Origin: a virus | Lineage: Duplodnaviria; Heunggongvirae; Uroviricota; Caudoviricetes | Reading direction: 5' to 3' (one strand) | Length of the DNA stretch: 38,265 nucleotides | Virus record (IMG/VR): IMGVR_UViG_2917870735_000001 | Coordinates: 1-38,265 of that record | In this document: positions 6,701 through 38,265 of the stretch, in pieces | Position numbering within the stretch: the stretch's first letter is position 1 | Layout: the number at the start of each line of letters is the position of its first letter | Position numbers and translations under genes: made by a program | Notes under the pieces: generated by a model | What the model was told of the DNA's origin: nothing | The model's database searches: none | What the model saw: only the letters and a program-made list of their open reading frames with translations

Positions 6701-7174
6701 TTTGCCCTTAATGGTGATGTCTTTTTCCGTCACCCAGCCACCATTACGCTGTATCTGAACCAGCAGGCGGACTTCCGATGGATTCCTGTCCCCCTTTGAG
6801 GTGGTTTCCACCAGTGCCTGCACACCGAAGGTAAAGCGCAGACGGTCGATGTTTGCCGACGTGATGGTCCGGGTGATCGGCGTGTCATATTTCACTTCCG
6901 TACCCAGCACCGTCTCGGAGCCGGAGGATTCAAATCCCTCCGGCGGTGTCTGCTCCTGCTCACCTGCCCGGAACACCACCGTGACACCGGAGATGTTGGT
7001 ATTCCCCTCACTGTCCAGCACCGGTGTACTGTTCAGCAGCACGCTTTTTAATCCATCCACCGGACCTTCAACCGGCCCTTCGCTGATGGCATCAATCACA
7101 CTCAGTAACTGCGTGGATTTCAGGTTGTCCTTCGCTTCGCGCGGGGTATGCCCCTTACTGCTGCCTTTACCCAT
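3776..7174 (-). CDS. J: tail tip host-specificity protein J
   Basis: 1132 aa, the same length as lambda J; N-terminus [34 protein letters not shown].. and most of the body match remembered lambda J almost residue for residue; C-terminal about 150 aa (receptor-binding region) diverge. Confidence 0.95.
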
Positions 7175-24722: not shown

Positions 24723-26054
24723 ATGTTAGATACACTATCTTTCACTGAACGTGACGAGTTCCAACGAAGAAACATCGCTGAAAATATCATCAAGTTGCTA
24801 AAACCAGAGGCAGACATTTCACCACTGGTAATAGACGGCGCATGGGGAACAGGGAAAACAGAATTTAGTATCAAACTGAAAAATCTCATTATTGAGCAAG
24901 AAACCGAATCTAAAGTTGTTTATATTGATGCCTTTAAAGGGGATCATGCAGAATCTCCATTACTTCTCATAACCTCTGCAATTGCTAGCATTTTGCCTGA
25001 GGAAGAAAAACAACACTTCATTAAGAGATCACTTCCTGCAATTCGATTTGGTTTAAAAACGGTACTAAAAGCTGGTGCAGGTTGGTTTTTACGACAGGAG
25101 GCTAGTGAAGTTGCCGAAGAATTCCAAGATGCGATGAAGAAAGCAAGCAATGCAGCAATAGATGGGACTATTGAAAATTTGCTTGAAGACCATATGGAAT
25201 CAGAGAAAAACATAAATTCACTTAAATCTTGCATCGAAAGTATTTCAGAAAATCAAAAGATAGTAATTATAATTGATGAATTAGACCGATGTAAGCCGAG
25301 TTTTTCAACAAATGTCATTGAAACAATAAAACACATTTTTGACATCAATAATGTCTTTTTTATTTTAGTTACAAACACAGAACAATTAAAAGCATCGATA
25401 AATCATATTTATGGTTATAGTATTAACTCACAAAAGTATCTTGACAAGTTTATAAAATATACCATCACGCTTCCAGACACATGTTTAATAAATGGTCACG
25501 TCGTATGTAAAACATCTGCTATATATTGGAATTACCTTGTAGACAAGACAAAATCACTAAATGAAATTAATAGTTTATCTGGTAGATTTATCCGTGATTT
25601 AATTCAACGAACCAACTTATCCTTACGTGAAACACAAACTTTTTCACGCAATCTTAACATTTTTCAACTGTTAAACGACGAGGAGTACAAAAGCAGTGCT
25701 CCTTTAATAAATAGGATCTTTGTCGTAGCTGTCTTCATACATTGCTTTGGTGACAAGGAAAAAATAAAACAAGAAATTACCGCTGAATCTATATCTCATT
25801 TAGCAGACCTGCTTAACATAAAAGAAATACCTTATTCTTATGAGAGAAGATCGCAAATTCCTGAAATATCTATTGTATTCTTCGGAATAATTAAAGACAG
25901 CATTACTCTTAATGCGCGATTTGCCCCTAAAAGTGATGAAGAACTTAAAAGATTCACAAATGTTTATACTAATTATGATCACCTAAATTTTTGGAGTACT
26001 ACACCCAGAGAGTTATTGATAAAATATATCAATCAAATGTCATTCATTCAGTAA
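24723..26054 (+). CDS. KAP-family P-loop NTPase
   Basis: 443 aa; Walker A GAWGTGKT (about residues 39-46) and the KAP-characteristic Walker B ..IVIIIDELDRC..; markedly AT-rich relative to flanking phage genes; opposite strand to the late operon; strong terminator immediately downstream. Confidence 0.8.
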   Translation: MLDTLSFTERDEFQRRNIAENIIKLLKPEADISPLVIDGAWGTGKTEFSIKLKNLIIEQETESKVVYIDAFKGDHAESPLLLITSAIASILPEEEKQHFIKRSLPAIRFGLKTVLKAGAGWFLRQEASEVAEEFQDAMKKASNAAIDGTIENLLEDHMESEKNINSLKSCIESISENQKIVIIIDELDRCKPSFSTNVIETIKHIFDINNVFFILVTNTEQLKASINHIYGYSINSQKYLDKFIKYTITLPDTCLINGHVVCKTSAIYWNYLVDKTKSLNEINSLSGRFIRDLIQRTNLSLRETQTFSRNLNIFQLLNDEEYKSSAPLINRIFVVAVFIHCFGDKEKIKQEITAESISHLADLLNIKEIPYSYERRSQIPEISIVFFGIIKDSITLNARFAPKSDEELKRFTNVYTNYDHLNFWSTTPRELLIKYINQMSFIQ

Positions 26055-26056
26055 AT

Positions 26057-26088
26057 AATACGCCCCTGCATGGGGCGTATTTTATTAA
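26057..26088 (+). terminator. rho-independent terminator after the KAP NTPase gene
   Basis: Perfect 10-bp stem aatacgcccc / ggggcgtatt with a 5-nt loop (26057..26081), followed by TTATT; overlaps the 3' end of Q on the other strand. Confidence 0.7.
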
Positions 26089-26450
26089 ACGTCCAAATCT
26101 AATGTTAGATCTAGCATGGAAAGGCAGCCATCAATAAATCCTTCGGCTAGCTGTATTTCTATACGTATCAATTTCTCATCCTTTCCACGCGCCTTTGCAA
26201 TCTTACGCTTGGATATTCTGTATAAATAATGTGCCACAAGAAGCGAATGCTCATAAGGTCTTTTTTGCTTTAGACGAGCAAGACAACCTTCAATAATTAA
26301 TGCATCACTATCCGAACAAGCCAAGCGTTTCTTGCTGGTATAGGGAAGAAGCCCTTTAAACCCAGCAGCTATAGGAGAATAGTCTACTCCTGAACTATCA
26401 CTCGCCGCCCATGCTCCCCAACGATCCAGAACCATCTGAATATCACGCAT
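26085..26450 (-). CDS. late-gene antiterminator Q-like protein
   Basis: About 121 aa from ATG 26450 (ORF track GTG at 26465); sequence MRDIQMVLDRWGAWAA.. resembles the Q-antiterminator family of phage-82-type prophages as I recall it; conserved position upstream of the lysis genes. Confidence 0.65.
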   Translation of the reverse strand: MRDIQMVLDRWGAWAASDSSGVDYSPIAAGFKGLLPYTSKKRLACSDSDALIIEGCLARLKQKRPYEHSLLVAHYLYRISKRKIAKARGKDEKLIRIEIQLAEGFIDGCLSMLDLTLDLDV

Positions 26451-26467
26451 CAACTTTCTCCACAAAA

Positions 26468-27463
26468 TCAGGCCAGCACGCCAGTTGCCAGCGCACGATC
26501 GATAAAACGAAATATCAGCTCCAGTTGGGAGCCATACTTCTCTTCAAATGCCACGGTATCTGCATGCAGCTCGTCGTGATGCTTTCTGCACAAAGGCAAC
26601 ACAAAGAGGTCATGCGCTTTTGTCCCCATTCCTCCCTGACCGTGACCTATCAGGTGGTGAGGATCATCAGCAGACTTTCCACAACATGCACACGGCTGCG
26701 TCTTAACCCAGCGCGTGTACTTTTCGTTAACCCAGCGGCAACGTTTGGGGCGTAACATAAAAGACTCCGGCGACTCCGGATCCACTTTCAGCGCCAGCAC
26801 CTTTTTCGCTTTATCCTGGATGATGCTGGTGGCAGGAACCGAAGGAACAAGGTCACTTTCCCGGGTGACAGACGGCACAACAGGCTTCGGTAATCTCAGT
26901 GCCTTACGGGCTGCACTTTCCGGTAAGGCATCCGCCAGGTCATTACGAACCAGCCACCAGCATAGTTCCGGCATTGTCACAACGTGACTATCATCAAAAC
27001 CGAGATCCCGACGCACAACAGACAACATCCAGCGGGCACAGTTATCCGTTGCCATTGATTCCAGCCGTTCCGTGAACTGATCGTGCAGCTGGTTATCGCA
27101 GTGCCAGCACAGACGGATTGCGCCCGGCGCGTGTCGCATTGTGGTCATGTTCTCGCTGTGCCAGTCGGAATGAGGCCACTGGCAGCCTTTTTCACGAAGT
27201 AACCAGCTTTCAAGACATTCCACTCCACCAGCACGACGGATCACTGCCTCATTGCGGAACACGGCCCGAACGGCAGGATCATCCGCCAGCGGTTGTGATG
27301 CTGCCGGAACGGCACCACTGGCGAAAGATGAATAACGTTCCGGCTCAGGCTCCAGCAGGACACGCCCCTGCATAAACAGGGGCATCAGCTCTGAACCTGG
27401 TCTGAACAATACGATCCCCATACGCGGGGCAATTTCAGGGGTCAGTAGAGCTCTCACGGTCAC
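26468..27463 (-). CDS. DUF968-like protein (Cys/His-rich C-terminus)
   Basis: 331 aa; C-terminal ..QPCACCGKSADDPHHL..HDLFVLPLCRKHHDELH.. Zn-binding/HNH-like pattern typical of nin-region proteins in E. coli cryptic prophages (recalled); start could be GTG 27463 or ATG 27421. Confidence 0.5.
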   Translation of the reverse strand: MTVRALLTPEIAPRMGIVLFRPGSELMPLFMQGRVLLEPEPERYSSFASGAVPAASQPLADDPAVRAVFRNEAVIRRAGGVECLESWLLREKGCQWPHSDWHSENMTTMRHAPGAIRLCWHCDNQLHDQFTERLESMATDNCARWMLSVVRRDLGFDDSHVVTMPELCWWLVRNDLADALPESAARKALRLPKPVVPSVTRESDLVPSVPATSIIQDKAKKVLALKVDPESPESFMLRPKRCRWVNEKYTRWVKTQPCACCGKSADDPHHLIGHGQGGMGTKAHDLFVLPLCRKHHDELHADTVAFEEKYGSQLELIFRFIDRALATGVLA

Positions 27464-27464
27464 C

Positions 27465-28274
27465 TCAATGAACGGTATCGAGCAGCTTTAACAGCTCAGG
27501 GAATCGGGATTCGAAGAAATGCGGCTGCGTCTCGCGCGGATTTGCGGGACTGGTGATGTTCTTGCCGAACATGCAGCCTTTCGCTGTCAGCGACCAGAAT
27601 TTTTTGATGTTGTTAATCGCGGTACGGCTGTATCGTTCGCGTTGTTCAACGATCCCCAGCTTCACCATCTGGTGATATGCCTGATTAGCCGTCAGGCGGA
27701 TACCATACTGCTTCAGCAGTGCACTCAGCGACAGCGTGGGGCGACTTGAGCCATCGTGTGCATCAGCAGGAGCATCAATGGCATAGCGCGGTGCCAGATT
27801 CGGTAATCCAACAGCCTCCTGGAGTTTCTGACAGGCCCCAAGCACAGATGAGTTAGACAGGTTTAACTCCCGACGCATAAAGTCCAGCAGAATCACTCCA
27901 GCCTGCATCTTGTCAGCAGCCTGTCCGGATAATTTTTCCGGTGCGCTGGTTACCATGTCGAAAGTACGGATCACCTTCAGATGGAATGACGGGCTGATCC
28001 ACATTGCATAGGCATACACCAGTTCCTTACAGACATACGTTCCCCGTTCATTTCCCCCATGAATCACACTCACCGGGTCAACACCCAAATTCTGGGTGTT
28101 GGTCAATTCATGAACAAGCTCAACAGTTTGTTGGCTGGAAAGAAACTTTCCTGGCTCCTTGGTTCTTGCATTTGCACCAGATGCTACTGCTGCGCGATGC
28201 AGATCGTTCAGGCTGTAACGACCATAAGCATCACGACGAACTTCAATACCATCAATGACCATCAGATTATTCAT
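27465..28274 (-). CDS. KilA-N domain protein (antirepressor-like)
   Basis: 269 aa; ATG at 28274 with AGGAGAA RBS; N-terminal region with the KilA-N-like pattern (..IDGIEVRRDAYGRYSLNDLHRAA.. ..YAMWISPSFHLKVIRTF..). Confidence 0.55.
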   Translation of the reverse strand: MNNLMVIDGIEVRRDAYGRYSLNDLHRAAVASGANARTKEPGKFLSSQQTVELVHELTNTQNLGVDPVSVIHGGNERGTYVCKELVYAYAMWISPSFHLKVIRTFDMVTSAPEKLSGQAADKMQAGVILLDFMRRELNLSNSSVLGACQKLQEAVGLPNLAPRYAIDAPADAHDGSSRPTLSLSALLKQYGIRLTANQAYHQMVKLGIVEQRERYSRTAINNIKKFWSLTAKGCMFGKNITSPANPRETQPHFFESRFPELLKLLDTVH

Positions 28275-28293: not shown

Positions 28294-28683
28294 TCAGGCG
28301 GCTGCACCCGCCGTTTTCTCGTACTTACTTATAGTGATCTCGACCTTCCCTTCCGGGATAACCGGTCCCCACTCCACCAGCATTCTTTTCACCTGGCTGT
28401 CGTCTTCCCACACACCCGCGTGGGTCAGGGCGTCAAACAGCGCCTTGTTATAGTTATCCAGATCGCGGATCCGGTTATCCGGTGGAAACAACACGATCTC
28501 CACTGAAGCAGGTGCCGACGTTGGTTTCGGCAGACGACGTAACTGCTCAATGATGGCGGCACACGCCGCGCCCTGGAATTTGCGCCCCGCCGCGCTTATC
28601 AGGCTCTTACCTGCAAACGCCCCTTTGTTGGGGTGTCGCCAGTACGTGTTCACGCTGGGCGGAAAAGGCAGAATCAGCTTCAT
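28294..28683 (-). CDS. rusA: RusA-family Holliday junction resolvase
   Basis: 129 aa; ..RDLDNYNKALFDALTHAGVWEDDSQV.. matches the remembered RusA catalytic core (DLDN..K..DAL...W.DD.QV); ATG overlaps upstream stop (ATGA). Confidence 0.8.
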   Translation of the reverse strand: MKLILPFPPSVNTYWRHPNKGAFAGKSLISAAGRKFQGAACAAIIEQLRRLPKPTSAPASVEIVLFPPDNRIRDLDNYNKALFDALTHAGVWEDDSQVKRMLVEWGPVIPEGKVEITISKYEKTAGAAA

Positions 28684-29006
28684 ACTTTCAGGCCCCTCTC
28701 ATGTAACCAGTAGGCTGCACGCAGCCTAGCGTTTTCCTCACCGGCAAGCAGTGCGCGGATAATCCCGACCGCCTCGCTGTCGTCGTCCTTCACCGCGGTA
28801 TGAAGCGTGATCCCCCGGGCCACGCCACGCTTTATCGTGATGACGCCTTTTTTCTCCAGTGCGCGAAGATGCTCCACCGCTGCATTCACTGAACGGTATC
28901 CCAGCATGGTTGCCACCTCCTGATTGGTTGGCGGGAAGCCACGTTCTTTCTGATAAGAAATCAGCATATCCAGCACCTGCTGCTGGCATTGAGTTAACGT
29001 CGTCAT
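28680..29006 (-). CDS. LexA N-terminal DNA-binding-domain-only protein
   Basis: From ATG 29006: MTTLTQCQQQVLDMLISYQKERGFPPTNQEVATMLGYRSVNAAVEHLRALEKKGVITIKRGVARGITL.. closely parallels the remembered E. coli LexA N-terminal winged-helix domain ([66 protein letters not shown]); no S24 peptidase domain follows. ATG overlaps the upstream TAA (TAATG). Confidence 0.6.
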   Translation of the reverse strand: MTTLTQCQQQVLDMLISYQKERGFPPTNQEVATMLGYRSVNAAVEHLRALEKKGVITIKRGVARGITLHTAVKDDDSEAVGIIRALLAGEENARLRAAYWLHERGLKV

Positions 29007-29494
29007 TAAGCCCCCACGTAATTCCCTGACAGATACCACTCTTCACCCGATGCAGCGCGCTTGCTGCTTTTCCGTAAACACCGCTCACGACGCGCAAGAA
29101 AATTGTTTCGCTCTTGCTGGGAGTGGCTTTCACGGAATGCCGCCATCCACACCGTTGCAGCACGACGAAATAAGCCCCTGGACTCCAGTTCTTCAGCCTG
29201 GCGGGTCAGGCACAAAATCACCCGCGGGTCGTTAGTGCCGACATAGAAATTGCGCACAGGTCTGGATTCACGAACTGGTTGCGGTTCCGGCTCCTGCGGT
29301 ATCTCAGTCAGGCGAGGGAAATGTCTGCGTGTATCCCCTTCACAACGGTGAGCCACACGCCCACTCTGACGTAACTTGCTTGCTGACTGCAGAACGCGCT
29401 GTCGTGAGTAACCTGCAAAAGCATCCGCAATGTCTCCGGAAGTACACCCCGGATGGGCTTCAATGAATTTCTGAACGTCATTCAAAAGACTCAT
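29006..29494 (-). CDS. hypothetical protein of replication module
   Basis: About 162 aa from ATG 29494 (2 nt after the initiator stop); basic, Arg-rich C-terminus; no recognised motif. Too short to be a helicase loader. Confidence 0.45.
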   Translation of the reverse strand: MSLLNDVQKFIEAHPGCTSGDIADAFAGYSRQRVLQSASKLRQSGRVAHRCEGDTRRHFPRLTEIPQEPEPQPVRESRPVRNFYVGTNDPRVILCLTRQAEELESRGLFRRAATVWMAAFRESHSQQERNNFLARRERCLRKSSKRAASGEEWYLSGNYVGA

Positions 29495-29496
29495 GA

Positions 29497-30438
29497 TCAC
29501 CCCCTGAATCCTGCCGGGATCTGGCTGTAGTCCACGTTGTCGTAACTGGCTTTAAAGTACGGGTCTTCGCGTTTTTCTGTGTACGTGCTGACGGACGGTG
29601 ATAAGCGCAGGGAAAGTTCATCCCATTTTTCCCGCAATTTCGATGGGCTGAGGACGTTACGGCACCAGAACGGGTCACGACTGACGCGGCTGTACATCTC
29701 GCAGATTTGTTTGTGAGTGCGACCATCCTGAACACACATCAGGCGAATTTCGTTTGCCCAGGCTGTCCAGTTTGGTTCTTTGGGACGAACCACCTCGCCG
29801 TCACATTCGGCGGCCTGCTCGTACAGGGCGATGATTTTTTTCCAGAGCCACTGTGCACAGGTCAAATCATCCTGCGTTCCCCACTGGCGCTTTTTAGGGC
29901 TGAATACAACCGCATCAGGATGGCGAGTTAAAAAATCCTGTTCAGCCTTCTGCGTGTCCGGTTGCGAAGCGTCCGGACGAGAAGTTTTTTTATCTGACGG
30001 ATCATGTTTTGATTTTACTGACGGATCCCCGCCAGATTCTGACGGGTGAAAACCCGCTTTTTTGCCAGATTTCGACGCATCAAATTTTGACGGGTCAGAT
30101 TTTGATGCGTCAGATTTTGACGGGTCAGAATCTGACAGTTGAGAAAGTGCCGCAGCCTGAAGCTTTGCAACGTTAAGCTGATAGACGTTCGACGCATTGC
30201 GGTTACCCTGGCGACGCGCCTTACGCGTTAACCAGCCTTCTGCTTCCAGCCGTGCGATAGCCGTTCTTACAGTACTCACCCCTGCGCCAATCTGGCGGGC
30301 AATGGTTTCAATTGATGGCCAGCACACACCTTCGTCATTACTGAAATCAGCCAGGCGGGCCATAATTGCCACACTGGATAATTTCATGCCTGACGCTGCG
30401 CAACCATCCCATACATAGCCGGTTAATTTAGTGCTCAT
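29497..30438 (-). CDS. replication initiator (O-like) with N-terminal winged-helix DNA-binding domain and internal origin iterons
   Basis: 313 aa; N-terminal HTH (..WPSIETIARQIGAGVSTVRTAIARLEAEGWL..); central low-complexity linker DPSKSDASKSDPSKFDASKSG encoded by tandem DNA iterons, as in the lambda O architecture. Confidence 0.65.
   Translation of the reverse strand: MSTKLTGYVWDGCAASGMKLSSVAIMARLADFSNDEGVCWPSIETIARQIGAGVSTVRTAIARLEAEGWLTRKARRQGNRNASNVYQLNVAKLQAAALSQLSDSDPSKSDASKSDPSKFDASKSGKKAGFHPSESGGDPSVKSKHDPSDKKTSRPDASQPDTQKAEQDFLTRHPDAVVFSPKKRQWGTQDDLTCAQWLWKKIIALYEQAAECDGEVVRPKEPNWTAWANEIRLMCVQDGRTHKQICEMYSRVSRDPFWCRNVLSPSKLREKWDELSLRLSPSVSTYTEKREDPYFKASYDNVDYSQIPAGFRG
29990..30140. 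repeat. replication origin iterons (tandem roughly 15-bp repeats, consensus about ATTTTGACGGGTCAG) inside the initiator gene
   Basis: Plus-strand copies at about 30067..30082, 30083..30098, 30099..30113, 30114..30128, 30129..30138, with further degenerate copies at 29993..30050; adjacent T-rich stretch at 29985..29992. Confidence 0.6.
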
Positions 30439-30447
30439 GACCGACCT

Positions 30448-30786
30448 CTATTTCCCTGAATTTACGACGAAACTGTTCGAGCGGACTGAAGCATTCATGC
30501 TCATAGCCTTCGCGGAGGTAGATAACCCGTTGTGTTTCCGGCTCCCAACGAATGACTCTGACGGGTACTCCGTAGTGATCTTTGAACCAGCGGTTAACTT
30601 GTCGCAAAGGACTGTCTCCTTCTGCCGGTTGAAATCACCCACAGCCCACTCTGCAAAGCTGTGGGTTACAATTTCCCTGTCACCTGGTACATTCACTGCA
30701 TAGCAATACTCCACCTTCGCTTTTCCACCCGGTACAGGAAGCGCAATCAGTTGCGAGCGACGGTAGGGTGTTGTTAAACTGTTCAT
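30448..30786 (-). CDS. hypothetical protein
   Basis: 112 aa; ATG at 30786 overlaps the upstream stop (ATGA) indicating coupling within the early-right operon; no recognised motif. Confidence 0.45.
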
Positions 30787-31340
30787 GCGTTAGTTTCTCC
30801 ACAATTAGAAGCAATCGACGCCACGACGCCCGGAGCTGCACACTCGCGGGCGTCATTACTTTCTGAAATGCAAAAGATTTTGTAGACCAGTGCTGCATGC
30901 TCCTGCAGCTTCGAAATTGACAGGTACAGTTCGTCGTTAATTGCTGCCTGCTCGTGTGGTTCCACCACCCCATCTTCAATTGCTGAACGAATCTGTTTTG
31001 AATAACTGCCGATCTGTTCAATGACCTCCAGCAGGCGTTGATTGATATCGGCGTTCTCTACTTCCTCAATTTCAGGAAGCGATACAAACACCCCACCAGC
31101 AGACTGTGCGACTGCATCCGCAATGTGGTGAGTGCCAGCAGCACGCTGTAAAACCATTGCCCATCCCAGCGGGAAAATCTGATCGCCATCGGCACGAAGG
31201 CGGTTGAATAAAGCGTTCTCTGTTACATCCAGCCAGTCAGCAGCTTCAGCGTACCCCCCCGGCAACGCCGCGATAGTTTTTCTGACAGCTTTCACGTACC
31301 ACTCAGGCTGTTTTTCTACTTTCCAGTGATGCTTACCCAC
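30783..31340 (-). CDS. early regulatory protein in CII position (possibly YdaT-like)
   Basis: 185 aa; GTG start at 31340 with AGGAGG RBS, overlapping cro-like 3' end; assignment rests on synteny (cro, then this gene, then replication genes), not on sequence recognition. Confidence 0.4.
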
Positions 31341-31593
31341 GGCTTACCTCCTGTTCCTGTGGTTTAAACTCATTCCGGTTTTGACTAGATTGAAAACGAG
31401 CAGGGTAGAGAATCTGCATTTCGCTGATTTCGCCCTTAAAAAAATTGGCCAGACGTTCTGCAAGATCGATAGATGGAATTTGTTCCAGTCTCTCAATACG
31501 ACTCAGCGTCGCTGGATTGACCTGAACGCCCGCAGCAACATGCTGCAAAGTGAATCCATGCGCCTTACGCACATTTCGTAATGGTGATTGCAT
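31333..31593 (-). CDS. Cro-like HTH (XRE-family) repressor
   Basis: 86 aa; HTH ..HGFTLQHVAAGVQVNPATLSRIERLEQIPS..; ATG at 31593 with GGAGG RBS; divergent from cI across an operator-containing intergenic region. Confidence 0.7.
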   Translation of the reverse strand: MQSPLRNVRKAHGFTLQHVAAGVQVNPATLSRIERLEQIPSIDLAERLANFFKGEISEMQILYPARFQSSQNRNEFKPQEQEVSRG

Positions 31594-31690: not shown

Positions 31691-32383
31691 ATGAACATAG
31701 GAAACCGAGTCAGACAACTTCGCCAGGCGAAGAACATGAAAATCGCCGATCTTGCTGAAGCAATAGGAGTGGATGCGGCGAACATCTCACGTTTGGAAAC
31801 AGGCAAGCAGAAACAATTTACCGAACAAGCACTGAGCAATATTGCCAAGAGCTTAGGTGTTGATATTGCTGATCTCTTTACCATAGACATCAAAAGTAAT
31901 ACTGTATATAAAAACAGTATTAATGAGGATGTTACGCAGGTGAAGGATGTGTTCCGTATTGAAATGCTGGATGTCAGTGCCAGTGCGGGAAATGGCCTTA
32001 TCCAGGGCGGTGATGTCATTGATGTGATTCATGCCATCGAATACAGAACTGATAATGCTGTATCGATGTTTGGCGGACGACCAGCCAATCACATTAAAGT
32101 TATCAACGTTCGTGGAGACAGTATGTGTCCAACCATAGAGCCAGGAGATCTAATCTTCGTTGATGTCAGTATCAATCAGTTTGATGGAGATGGTATCTAT
32201 GTATTTGGTTTTGATGATAAAATTTACGTCAAACGACTGCAAATGATACCTGACAAATTGCTGGTGATTTCTGATAACCAGATTTACCGCGAATGGGGAA
32301 TTACCAGCGAAAATGAACACCGATTCATGGTCTTTGGAAAGGTCTTAATCAGCCAGTCACAAACCCTTAAGCGACACAATTAA
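31691..32383 (+). CDS. cI: CI-type repressor (HTH_XRE plus S24 LexA-like autopeptidase domain)
   Basis: 230 aa; N-terminal HTH (..MKIADLAEAIGVDAANISRLETGKQ..), C-terminal S24 domain with Ser motif (..VRGDSMCPTIEPGDLIFVD..) and Lys (..YVKRL..); divergent from cro-like gene. Confidence 0.9.
   Translation: MNIGNRVRQLRQAKNMKIADLAEAIGVDAANISRLETGKQKQFTEQALSNIAKSLGVDIADLFTIDIKSNTVYKNSINEDVTQVKDVFRIEMLDVSASAGNGLIQGGDVIDVIHAIEYRTDNAVSMFGGRPANHIKVINVRGDSMCPTIEPGDLIFVDVSINQFDGDGIYVFGFDDKIYVKRLQMIPDKLLVISDNQIYREWGITSENEHRFMVFGKVLISQSQTLKRHN
31900..31919. promoter_or_regulatory. SOS-box-like palindrome TACTGTATATAAAAACAGTA inside the cI coding sequence
   Basis: Matches the LexA box consensus TACTG(TA)5CAGTA at 18 of 20 positions, with both CTGT/ACAG arms and TA flanks intact; lies in the linker-coding part of cI. 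Confidence 0.4.
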
Positions 32384-37041: not shown

Positions 37042-38265
37042 TCAATTGGAGCATGAGTTAGTACAAGTAACAATCGATTCAACTCTCTCCCACCATGCCT
37101 GGTAGGCTTTACGCTGTTCTTCTAAATAATCGCACTTGTCATAAACCTGCCATACCCCTGGCAGTTTATGACCTAGCATTATTTCTGCAATATGAGGCGC
37201 AGTAAGATCAGAAAAGTTTGTTCGTGCTGTTCGCCTCAAATCATGAAGAGACCAATGAGGGAATTGATACCCCAAACGCCGCCATGCGTACTGCATTAAA
37301 TTGTAAGGCAGCGACTGCAATGATGTCCGACCAACGGGTTCCCTGCTTCCTTCCTTAGTAAAAAGCATATCGGAACCATTGTTCATAGAAATAGCGTACT
37401 TTATAAGCTCTTCAACCGGTTCAATAATGGGCCGCTTTAGCGGTTCGCCTGTTATCTCCCCAGTCTTATGTCGTTCTGGTGGTACAGTCCATACTTTATT
37501 AATGAAATCAAAATCGTCCACCCTGGCGGTAATTAGCTCTGAACTACGGCAGCCAAAATGCAGCAATAGTTTAATGAATGCCCGGTATTTAGGAACCATT
37601 CGAGAACCATCGATCGCAGCATAAAGGATTTTAATTTCATCATGTGTCAGAAACCGTTTCTTCTGACCTTTACGGATATCCATATCTTTACCCGTGATAT
37701 CCGACAGCGGGCGAGTTTCAATGAGCTTTCTCTTATACGCCCAGACATGGGCCTGCTTTGCGTTAATTAGCAATCGGTCTGCTATTGCTGGAGTCTTAGT
37801 GCTAAGAGGCTCCAGGACTTCTAACCAATCATGCAATGTAGCTGCATCGTGAGGGATATTCCCGATTTTAGAGAACAGGTGCAGCTCAAACGAGCGGAGT
37901 ATCTGTTCAGAACCTTTTTTATTTTTTACACAATATGCTTCATACCAGGCACGGATCACAGACTCTACCGTCATGGCTTCAGTAGCTTTTCGTTTTTCAG
38001 CCTGCTTGACTAATCGTGGATTGCGGTTTGACTCGAGTTCACCACGGAGACGGATAACTTCTTCTCTGGCCTCTTTTAATCCAGTTGCCGGGTAAGTTCC
38101 GATATCAAGGCGCTCACCTTTCCCTGCCCATTGATAACGATATTGGAACACTACGCGACCTTTCGGTGATACTCTGACAGACAGACCATCACGATCGGAT
38201 TTAACCAAAACCTTATCACGTTCCTTTCCAACGACTGAACGCAACCACGCATCAGACAGCGCCAT
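37042..38265 (-). CDS. int: tyrosine integrase (P4-like, N-terminal arm-binding domain)
   Basis: 407 aa; N-terminus ..GLSVRVSPKGRVVFQYRYQWAGKGERLDIGTYP.. typical of P4-family integrase arm domain; C-terminal catalytic motifs ..HDLRRTARTNF.. and ..LGHKLPGVWQVYDK.. (His/Arg and Tyr). Start ATG is the last three bases of the window, so upstream context is unseen. Confidence 0.9.
   Translation of the reverse strand: MALSDAWLRSVVGKERDKVLVKSDRDGLSVRVSPKGRVVFQYRYQWAGKGERLDIGTYPATGLKEAREEVIRLRGELESNRNPRLVKQAEKRKATEAMTVESVIRAWYEAYCVKNKKGSEQILRSFELHLFSKIGNIPHDAATLHDWLEVLEPLSTKTPAIADRLLINAKQAHVWAYKRKLIETRPLSDITGKDMDIRKGQKKRFLTHDEIKILYAAIDGSRMVPKYRAFIKLLLHFGCRSSELITARVDDFDFINKVWTVPPERHKTGEITGEPLKRPIIEPVEELIKYAISMNNGSDMLFTKEGSREPVGRTSLQSLPYNLMQYAWRRLGYQFPHWSLHDLRRTARTNFSDLTAPHIAEIMLGHKLPGVWQVYDKCDYLEEQRKAYQAWWERVESIVTCTNSCSN

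What the first reader, a model, noticed from the sequence alone, without database searches (positions are those of the whole stretch)
29985..30140. Origin-like iterons embedded in the replication initiator gene
At least five tandem copies of a roughly 15-bp unit (about ATTTTGACGGGTCAG) at 30067..30138, with degenerate copies further upstream and a T-rich stretch nearby, lie inside the initiator ORF and encode its repetitive DPSKSDASKSD linker. This is the lambda O/ori architecture, although the initiator N-terminal domain does not resemble lambda O.
Basis: partly seen in the sequence, partly recalled or inferred. Interest (0 to 1): 0.4.

Follow-up and report, generated by a model that had tools for sequence, protein, structure and literature searches.

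The report
Replication-origin repeats inside phage initiator gene
A prophage's replication-initiator gene carries a conserved array of short palindromic DNA repeats in the stretch that encodes its floppy linker; this is almost certainly the phage's replication origin, the classic lambda layout in a different protein family, so it is well supported but ordinary.

Summary
The 313-aa initiator gene (29497..30438, minus strand) of an SfIV/SfII-like lambdoid prophage holds five tandem 15-bp units at 30063-30145. Three spaced copies lie at 30038-30051, 30017-30030 and 29993-30006, next to the local GC minimum.

Each unit is a dyad: half-sites TCTGAC/GTCAGA. The repeats encode a linker that the structure model predicts to be disordered, between an N-terminal winged-helix domain (Pfam HTH_36) and a C-terminal domain. 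That C-terminal domain is homologous to the one in phage phi80 gp15.

Selection acts on the DNA, not only on the peptide. Across 42 diverged Enterobacterales loci, identical codons at identical amino acids are 90% in the linker and 42% in the N-terminal domain.

Sister initiators with other N-terminal domains carry their own repeats at the same place, often in all three reading frames. An Arg-to-Ile change in the recognition helix goes with a symmetric change in both half-sites. The mosaic junction lies just past the last repeat.

The lambda O/ori reading is therefore supported, although binding and initiation were not tested. It is a new member of a known kind.

Side note: the initiator ends in the C-terminal peptide of host DnaT, and no loader gene follows it.

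The parts
29497..30438 (-). Replication initiator gene, 313 aa (96-97% DNA identity to Shigella phage SfIV gp41 and SfII 'primosomal protein / replication protein O')
   Evidence: ORF list; megablast against phages; phrog_391 'replication initiation O-like', E 2e-134; Pfam HTH_36
30142..30438 (-). Codes for the N-terminal winged-helix DNA-binding domain (aa 1-99), the presumed iteron reader
   Evidence: Pfam HTH_36 at aa 23-70, E 3e-12. AF2 model: helices plus a beta-hairpin wing, pLDDT 72-89. Foldseek best matches are MarR/ArsR-type winged helices
30063..30145 (.). Tandem array: five 15-bp units, the outermost degenerate. It can be read as 14-bp dyads TYTGAC-SC-GTCARA, or as 13-bp dyads GTCARAWTYTGAC separated by 2 bp
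   Evidence: dyad symmetry from position counts over 264 units in 45 loci
30031..30051 (.). Spaced copy 6 (gene strand TTTCACCCGTCAGAATCTGGC). Part of the segment whose DNA is nearly invariant across genera
30017..30030 (.). Spaced copy 7 (gene strand GGGGATCCGTCAGT), with a conserved GATC at 30024-30027
29993..30006 (.). Spaced copy 8 (gene strand CATGATCCGTCAGA), with a conserved GATC at 30000-30003
29981..30024 (.). A/T-richer stretch interleaved with copies 7 and 8 and ending in the run of seven T at 29985-29991. Candidate DNA-unwinding region, but weak
   Evidence: The GC minimum, 0.38, is at 29975-30024 in a 2-kb scan; sequence
29960..29993 (.). Mosaic junction. Homology to phiNP (same N-terminal module) ends here and homology to mEp460_4F5 (same C-terminal module) begins here
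29605..29934 (-). Codes for the C-terminal helical domain (aa 169-278), homologous to the C-terminal domain of phi80 gp15
   Evidence: BLASTP 36% identity, E 4e-25; AF2 pLDDT 85-93
29500..29526 (-). Codes for the C-terminal peptide SQIPAGFRG, which matches 8 of 9 residues of the extreme C-terminus of E. coli DnaT
   Evidence: conserved at the end of most relatives whatever their C-terminal domain

Best explanation
The repeats are the initiator-binding sites (iterons) of the phage's replication origin, placed inside the initiator's own gene as in lambda, phi80 and P22.

Inferred mechanism:
1. After derepression, rightward early transcription (here leftward on the + strand) makes the 313-aa initiator.
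2. Dimers of its N-terminal winged-helix domain bind the dyad-symmetric sites. There are five contiguous sites at 15-bp pitch plus three spaced sites.
3. The nucleoprotein complex destabilises the adjoining A/T-richer DNA around 29981-30024.
4. The C-terminal domain and tail bring in the host DnaB helicase. No phage helicase or loader gene is present, so this probably goes through host DnaC.

Shown here: the repeats exist; their DNA sequence, not merely the peptide, is under selection; they belong to the same inherited module as the DNA-binding domain; they change together with that domain.

Inferred, not shown: binding, unwinding, helicase loading, and that replication starts here.
For: 1. 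Repeat statistics.

2. Selection on the DNA.
- In 264 units from 45 loci, the Ser after P/A is TCA in 231 of 264, against 12-21% of Ser codons elsewhere in the same genes.
- Lys is AAA 164:1 over AAG, and Glu is GAA 58:0 over GAG.
- Asp is GAC 139:41 and Pro is mostly CCG, so this is not simple AT bias.
- At conserved amino acids the modal-codon fraction is 0.93 in the linker (14 columns) and 0.53 in the N-terminal domain (61 columns); Mann-Whitney p = 4e-8.
- Identical codons at identical residues are 90% against 42%, and 87% against 38% for pairs with under 80% N-terminal identity.
- Against phiNP the repeat region is 93-100% identical, while the N-terminal coding DNA is 70-87%.

3. The core motif occurs 203 times in the linker DNA and twice in the rest of the 45 ORFs.

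4. The unit is a 14-bp dyad, which a peptide repeat does not require.

5. Co-variation. Loci whose recognition helix reads STV-I/T-T instead of STV-R-T have TCTGAACGTTCAGAA units instead of TCTGACSCGTCARAA, a symmetric change in both half-sites. Seven proteins against 120 follow this rule.

6. Other N-terminal types have other repeats at the same place.
- mEp460_4F5 has six GGTCAAARTG copies every 23-24 bp, in all three frames.
- SfV has four GCAGGAGATTCACC copies.
- Pseudomonas and Pigmentiphaga relatives have 4-7 CACCCCCGCAG copies every 17-22 bp, in all three frames.

7. The module boundary lies just after the last repeat.

8. The AF2 model puts the repeats in a predicted disordered linker, aa 103-160 with pLDDT below 50.

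9. The C-terminal domain is homologous to that of phi80 gp15, whose record annotates four gp15 sites at nt 365-441 of its own gene.

10. PMC8022706 states the general rule for lambda O, P22 gp18 and L gp18.
Against: - There is no experimental binding or origin mapping for this family in the literature I could reach.
- All eight copies in the window are in one reading frame, so a contribution from peptide-level selection cannot be excluded for this type.
- Copy number of the tandem units varies from about 2 to 9, and some homologues (P0015, P0029, P0063, P0068) lack most of the tandem array. So the tandem part may be dispensable, or those prophages may be defective.
- The A/T-rich element is weak: 38% GC over 50 bp.
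- A 15-bp pitch puts neighbouring sites on nearly opposite faces of the helix. From my knowledge, lambda's iterons are phased differently.
- Sequences share ancestry, so the codon counts are not independent events.
Confidence: 0.78

Rival explanations
1. The sites are bound by the initiator, or by another phage DNA-binding protein, for regulation rather than initiation. Examples are autorepression or a transcriptional roadblock inside the gene, or copy-number control by handcuffing. The origin would then lie elsewhere.
For: The units are palindromes. From my knowledge, in iteron plasmids palindromes are typically the operator form bound by Rep dimers. Several small HTH proteins are encoded nearby: cII-like, PerC-like and LexA-DBD-like. 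The DNA-level conservation shows a cis element, not its function.
Against: The sites are mid-gene, not at a promoter, and the scan found no promoter-like site there. They co-vary and travel with the initiator's own DNA-binding domain. The same position holds the annotated gp15 sites of phi80. No other repeat array of comparable score exists in the 38-kb window.
Confidence: 0.1
2. The repeats are only a slippage-prone, low-complexity peptide linker (DPSKS)n. The DNA regularity would be a by-product of recent duplication and gene conversion.
For: All copies are in frame; copy number varies; some homologues lack the tandem part.
Against: Synonymous sites are fixed across genera from Escherichia to Providencia and Yersinia, while the N-terminal domain's synonymous sites are randomised. 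Amino-acid replacements keep the nucleotides (S to F as TCT to TTT, K to E as AAA to GAA). Dyad symmetry is unexplained by a peptide. Where the peptide changes to SERSE, the dyad is kept. Sister types have out-of-frame repeats.
Confidence: 0.05
3. The element works as a folded single strand, RNA or DNA. Candidates are an mRNA structure, a cruciform, or a primosome-assembly-type hairpin.
For: The 171-nt region folds far better than shuffles: DNA z = -5.2, RNA z = -5.5.
Against: Strong folding follows automatically from an array of inverted half-sites. The equivalent regions of other types fold less well or not at all: mEp460_4F5 z = -3.2, Pigmentiphaga z = -2.5, SfV z = -0.5. Copy-number changes would shift the long-range pairs. 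The only Rfam hit is a below-threshold miRNA model, 30.7 bits against a gathering score of 97.
Confidence: 0.05

Closest known systems
Phage lambda O protein and ori-lambda (four ~20-bp dyad-symmetric iterons plus an AT-rich region in the middle of gene O)
   Same: Repeated dyad-symmetric sites in the middle of the initiator gene, encoding the interdomain linker. N-terminal DNA-binding domain and iterons form one type-specific module, with a separate C-terminal module. Same genome position, downstream of cro and cII.
   Different: The N-terminal domain is Pfam HTH_36, not Phage_rep_O. There are eight sites of 13-14 bp, five of them abutting at 15-bp pitch. The AT-rich part is weak. No P-like gene follows. 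There is a DnaT-like tail.
Phage phi80 gene 15 / gene 14 replication module
   Same: The C-terminal domain is homologous (36% identity, E 4e-25). Four annotated gp15 binding sites lie inside gene 15 at nt 365-441, the same relative position as here, nt ~300-445.
   Different: phi80 gp15 has a Phage_rep_O N-terminus, different iterons at 20-21-bp pitch, no GFRG tail and a lambda-P-like gp14.
P22 gene 18 and phage L gene 18
   Same: Distantly related initiators that each carry their own repeats inside the coding region; for L these are predicted from sequence only (PMC8022706).
   Different: Those modules pair the initiator with a DnaB-type helicase (gp12). Here no helicase gene is present.
SfV orf39, Stx2a_1447 'replication protein O' and mEp460_4F5 'primosomal protein I'
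   Same: Same gene slot and the same C-terminal tail. mEp460_4F5 also shares the C-terminal domain. Each has its own in-gene repeat array.
   Different: Different N-terminal domains and different repeat sequences and spacings (23-24 bp; 21-45 bp).
Iteron plasmids (Rep proteins with winged-helix domains binding direct repeats at oriV)
   Same: A winged-helix initiator and multiple repeated binding sites next to an unwinding region (my knowledge; quotes the general description).
   Different: Plasmid iterons are usually intergenic ~20-bp direct repeats bound by monomers. Here the sites are intragenic dyads.

Membership tests
Lambdoid 'origin inside the initiator gene' architecture | Initiator with an N-terminal sequence-specific DNA-binding domain, a flexible linker and a C-terminal recruitment domain | tested here: met
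   Pfam HTH_36 at aa 23-70. AF2 model: wHTH aa 1-99, predicted disorder aa 103-160, helical domain aa 189-278. The C-terminal domain is homologous to that of phi80 gp15.
Lambdoid 'origin inside the initiator gene' architecture | Three or more repeated sites in the middle of the gene, in the DNA that encodes the linker | tested here: met
   Eight copies at 29993-30145, which is gene nt ~294-446 of 942.
Lambdoid 'origin inside the initiator gene' architecture | Repeats conserved as DNA beyond what the protein needs | tested here: met
   Codon identity at identical residues is 90% against 42%; modal-codon fraction 0.93 against 0.53, p = 4e-8.
Lambdoid 'origin inside the initiator gene' architecture | Repeats are specific to the type of DNA-binding domain and are inherited with it | tested here: met
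   Three N-terminal types in coliphages and a Pseudomonas type each have their own repeats. The junction is at 29960-29993. The helix R-to-I change goes with a half-site change.
Lambdoid 'origin inside the initiator gene' architecture | Adjacent AT-rich unwinding element | tested here: inconclusive
   The local GC minimum is only 0.38 over 50 bp at 29975-30024, interleaved with two repeat copies.
Lambdoid 'origin inside the initiator gene' architecture | The initiator binds the repeats and replication starts there | not testable with these tools
   Needs EMSA or footprinting and origin mapping. No paper found for this family.
Lambda O protein family (Pfam Phage_rep_O, PF04492) | N-terminal domain matches Phage_rep_O | tested here: not met
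   No PF04492 hit at E <= 0.01, whereas phi80 gp15 hits it at 6e-25. hhalign against the phi80 gp15 N-terminus: probability 0.8%, E 0.067.
Lambda O/P or phi80 15/14 type two-gene module | A P-like or DnaC-like helicase-loader gene directly downstream | tested here: not met
   The downstream genes are PerC-like, LexA-DBD-like, RusA, KilA-N, DUF968 and Q. No helicase or loader was found among the early-region ORFs scanned. Some relatives (L088) do have a DnaC-like gene.
PHROG 391 'replication initiation O-like' / HTH_36 phage initiators | Full-length match to the family profile | tested here: met
   phrog_391, E 2e-134, aa 1-313 over profile positions 1-298 of 298. 2373 homologous clusters, nearly all with PF13730.

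The most novel reading that the evidence does not exclude
These phages run an 'initiator-only' replicon. The initiator binds its in-gene dyad array and then uses a copy of host DnaT's extreme C-terminal peptide (SQIPAGFRG against DnaT SQIPPGFRG) to capture the host DnaC-DnaB complex or the restart primosome, which would make a phage-encoded loader unnecessary. If so, the phage would point to the still undefined step by which DnaT hands DnaB/DnaC to DNA. It would also give a simple genetic system, phage growth, in which to test that step.
Probability: 0.3. Interest if true: 0.6.

Novelty: new member of a known kind. Interest (0 to 1): 0.3.

Why it matters
- It gives a well-founded origin annotation for a very common prophage replication gene that databases currently label 'helix-turn-helix domain-containing protein', 'GntR family regulator', 'primosomal protein' or 'replication protein O'. 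The nearest protein cluster alone has more than 5,000 member sequences, mostly Escherichia and Shigella, including serotype-converting phages; Stx-converting phages carry sister forms of the gene.
- It shows that the lambda rule, an origin inside the initiator gene and inherited with the DNA-binding domain, extends to HTH_36-type initiators from Enterobacterales to Pseudomonas.
- It offers a clean natural example of protein-DNA co-variation: Arg to Ile in the recognition helix with GAC/GTC to GAA/TTC in both half-sites.
- It does not change how phage replication is understood.

Tried and rejected
- DnaA boxes: TTWTNCACA has no match within 5 kb of the array, and 2 in the whole window against 3.5 expected.
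- Known RNA families: only a below-threshold miRNA hairpin hit.
- A terminator-like hairpin on the + strand at 30043-30056: its stem is not kept in relatives, so I rejected it.
- Alternative-frame ORFs through the array (30009..30176 on the + strand, 30015..30197 on the - strand): these are treated as by-products of a stop-free repeat. They were not tested further.
- Single-strand structure: significant here but not general in the family.
- GATC: not enriched in the window overall. Only the two sites inside copies 7 and 8 are conserved.
- Literature: the SfV genome paper is not held. The SfIV paper says nothing on the origin. Searches for 'initiator-solo' and for DnaT-like phage proteins gave nothing relevant. 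Two reviews and a 2026 PriA paper give no function for DnaT's C-terminal peptide.
- Tail versus loader gene: most relatives have no loader gene downstream whether or not they have the tail, so the simple idea that the tail replaces the loader is not supported by gene context alone.
- Solved structures by sequence: only weak MarR hits.

Full report
**What the window is.**
The region is the early-right operon of a lambdoid prophage, read on the minus strand. In order it holds:
- cI-like repressor, 31691..32383 (+ strand)
- cro-like, 31333..31593
- cII-like, 30783..31340
- two small ORFs
- the 313-aa initiator, 29497..30438
- PerC-like, 29006..29500
- LexA-DBD-like, 28680..29039
- RusA, 28294..28683
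- KilA-N, 27465..28274
- DUF968/HNH, 26468..27463
- Q, 26085..26465

An integrase lies at 37042..38265. The initiator gene is 96-97% identical in DNA to gp41 of Shigella phage SfIV, and to the same gene of SfII and several Escherichia phages. There it is annotated 'primosomal protein', 'replication protein' or 'DNA replication protein O'. It matches phrog_391 'replication initiation O-like' over its full length (E 2e-134).

**The observation.**
It is correct.
- Tandem Repeats Finder gives 30066-30129 as 15 bp x 4.3 copies, or equally 30 bp x 2.1. This is the best-scoring array in the window.
- With the degenerate outer copy there are five tandem units at 30063-30145. Three further copies follow at spacings of 33, 21 and 24 bp (30038-30051, 30017-30030, 29993-30006).
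- Motif counts exceed every shuffle.
- All copies lie in one frame of the initiator ORF and encode ...SDSDPSKSDASKSDPSKFDASKS...HPSES..GDPSVK..HDPSDK.
- The T runs and a modest GC minimum (0.38 at 29975-30024) are there too.

**Anatomy of the unit.**
Position counts over 264 units from 45 loci give, on the gene strand, T-Y-T-G-A-C-S-C-R-T-C-A-R-A-A.
- This is a 14-bp dyad, TYTGAC SC GTCARA, plus one base.
- In a tandem array it can equally be read as 13-bp dyads, GTCARA-W-TYTGAC, separated by 2 bp.
- Which register is the protein's site cannot be decided from sequence. The second register puts the TGAC/GTCA cores 9 bp apart, as is usual for dimeric helix-turn-helix proteins (inference).
- The single strand therefore folds well (z about -5). 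That is a consequence of the dyads and is not a general property of the family.

**Is the DNA itself under selection?**
A genome scan with the N-terminal 95 residues returned 45 Enterobacterales loci with 67-93% identical N-terminal domains, from Citrobacter to Yersinia, Proteus and Providencia. All but two truncated or disrupted loci (L038, L050) keep the full linker motif, with 2-8 matches to the strict core motif per locus. The core motif occurs 203 times in the linker DNA and twice elsewhere in those ORFs.

Codon use inside the units is extreme:
- Ser after P/A is TCA in 231 of 264, against a background of 12-21%.
- Lys is AAA 164:1 and Glu is GAA 58:0.
- Asp is GAC 139:41 and Pro is mostly CCG, so this is not AT bias.
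- Replacements keep the nucleotides: S to F is TCT to TTT, and K to E is AAA to GAA.

In the alignable distal part (F-D/H-P-S-E-S-G-G-D-P-S-V-x-S-x-x-D-P-S):
- The modal-codon fraction at conserved residues is 0.93, against 0.53 in the N-terminal domain (p = 4e-8).
- Identical codons at identical residues are 90% against 42%. For pairs under 80% identical in the N-terminal domain the figures are still 87% against 38%.
- The stretch CAGAATCTGG(N)GGGGATCCGTCAGTAA is almost invariant across genera.

So the most conserved DNA is the spaced distal part, not the tandem array, whose copy number drifts.

**Do the repeats belong to the DNA-binding domain?**
- *Mosaicism.* Citrobacter phage phiNP shares the N-terminal domain and the repeats but has an unrelated C-terminal domain (Pfam Phg_2220_C). 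mEp460_4F5 shares the C-terminal domain but has another N-terminal domain and other repeats. The two homology blocks meet at 29960-29993, just past the last repeat copy.
- *Other types, other repeats, same place.* mEp460_4F5 has six GGTCAAARTG copies every 23-24 bp in all three reading frames. SfV orf39 has four GCAGGAGATTCACC copies. The 35-40% identical HTH_36 initiators of Pseudomonas, Pigmentiphaga and others have 4-7 CACCCCCGCAG copies every 17-22 bp in all three frames. Out-of-frame repeats cannot be peptide repeats.
- *Co-variation within the type.* Where the recognition helix reads STV-I-T (or T-T) instead of STV-R-T, the unit is TCTGAACGTTCAGAA instead of TCTGACSCGTCARAA, the same change in both half-sites. 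The peptide becomes SERSE. Seven proteins against 120 follow this rule. They may be one clade, so this is one or a few events. Arg-to-Ile paired with G:C-to-T:A is what a direct base contact would predict (inference).

**Protein architecture.**
The AlphaFold model built on 42 homologues shows:
- a winged helix at aa 1-99 (pLDDT 72-89)
- a low-confidence, presumably disordered stretch at aa 103-160, which is exactly the part encoded by the repeats
- a helical domain at aa 189-278 (pLDDT 85-93)
- a floppy tail

Foldseek matches the N-terminal domain to MarR/ArsR-type winged helices, which bind dyads as dimers. The C-terminal domain is 36% identical (E 4e-25) to that of phi80 gp15. The phi80 record annotates four gp15 binding sites inside gene 15 at nt 365-441 and a lambda-P-like gp14 downstream. 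The N-terminal domains are not detectably related: HTH_36 against Phage_rep_O, hhalign probability 0.8%. The gene is thus a chimera in the usual lambdoid sense: a different origin-recognition module on a phi80-type C-terminal module.

**Comparison with what is known.**
PMC8022706 sets out the rule that lambda O, P22 gp18 and L gp18 each bind different iterons lying within their own coding regions. For phage L that paper infers the origin from repeats alone. The present case is another instance of the rule, in a family where I found no published origin mapping (the SfV paper is not held).

It differs from lambda in four ways:
- the family of the DNA-binding domain
- the tight 15-bp pitch of five sites
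- the weak AT-rich element
- the absence of any helicase or loader gene

It fails membership of the O protein family proper, but it works like it.

**Rivals.**
- A purely peptide repeat is contradicted by the synonymous-site data, the dyad symmetry and the SERSE variants.
- A regulatory operator array cannot be excluded by computation, but nothing points to it: there is no promoter-like site, and the sites sit mid-gene.
- A structured RNA or DNA element is not supported across the family.
- A weak supporting item: PLSDB holds a 16-kb circular record made only of cI-cro-initiator-DnaC-like...Q-lysis genes of a 53% identical relative, which resembles a lambda-dv plasmid. It could also be an assembly artefact.

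**Verdict.**
It is a new member of a known kind and of modest interest. The more unusual lead is the DnaT-like C-terminal peptide on an initiator that has no loader gene. I list it separately because it is not part of the finding and rests on a 9-residue match plus conservation.

Noticed in passing
window 29500-29526 (minus strand), aa 305-313 of the initiator: The initiator ends in SQIPAGFRG, matching 8 of 9 residues of the extreme C-terminus of E. coli DnaT (SQIPPGFRG). Most relatives end in (I/V)PxGFR(G/S/T) even when their C-terminal domains are unrelated. phi80 gp15, which has a P-like partner, lacks the peptide. One relative (L088) has the tail followed by a DnaC-like gene, mirroring the host dnaT-dnaC operon. 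Reviews say it is unknown how DnaT recruits DnaB/DnaC.
   Followed up: partly
window 30428-30786 (minus strand): Two same-strand ORFs overlap in different frames just upstream of the initiator. One is a 112-aa 'MNSLT...' ORF (30448..30786, phrog_1170). The other is a 59-aa DUF4222 ORF (30428..30607) that also overlaps the initiator start. About 25 of 43 diverged loci keep both ORFs open across the ~170-nt overlap, and in three loci the frames are swapped. This could be overlapping genes or a frameshift site.
   Followed up: partly
window 30000-30003 and 30024-30027; L002, L003, L004 and many loci: The two distal repeat copies each contain a GATC that is invariant across the family. In many relatives (SfV, mEp460_4F5, phiNP, L010, L018, L019 and others) a Dam-type adenine methyltransferase gene follows the initiator or lies close downstream in the same module. 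This suggests methylation-dependent control of the origin.
   Followed up: no
L087 (phi80) about 6786-6812: Just before its C-terminal domain, phi80 gene 15 has two TCTGACG copies (gaattctgacgaatcctctgacgcacg, peptide NSDESSDA). They resemble the window's iteron core and may be a relic of a type-A linker left by module exchange.
   Followed up: no
window 24723-26054 (+ strand): A KAP-family P-loop NTPase gene (Pfam E 2e-70) sits on the opposite strand between the antiterminator Q gene and the late region. That is a typical moron slot, so it may be a defence gene.
   Followed up: no
L091 = NZ_CP148542.1 (16-kb circular 'plasmid', E. coli): The record consists only of a lambdoid early-right and lysis segment: cI, cro, a 53% identical HTH_36 initiator, a DnaC-like gene, Q and lysis genes. 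It is either a lambda-dv-like autonomous element or an assembly artefact.
   Followed up: partly
L054 (E. coli ECGI0523, CP178306.1): The initiator ORF is identical for 79 residues and then runs into unrelated sequence. This is a deletion or fusion, so this copy is a prophage remnant.
   Followed up: no
proteins P0015, P0019, P0029, P0063, P0068: Natural variants of the initiator lack most or all of the tandem 15-bp units but keep the distal ...SGGDPSVKSKHDPS part. This fits the distal sites being the indispensable core, or these being decaying prophages.
   Followed up: no
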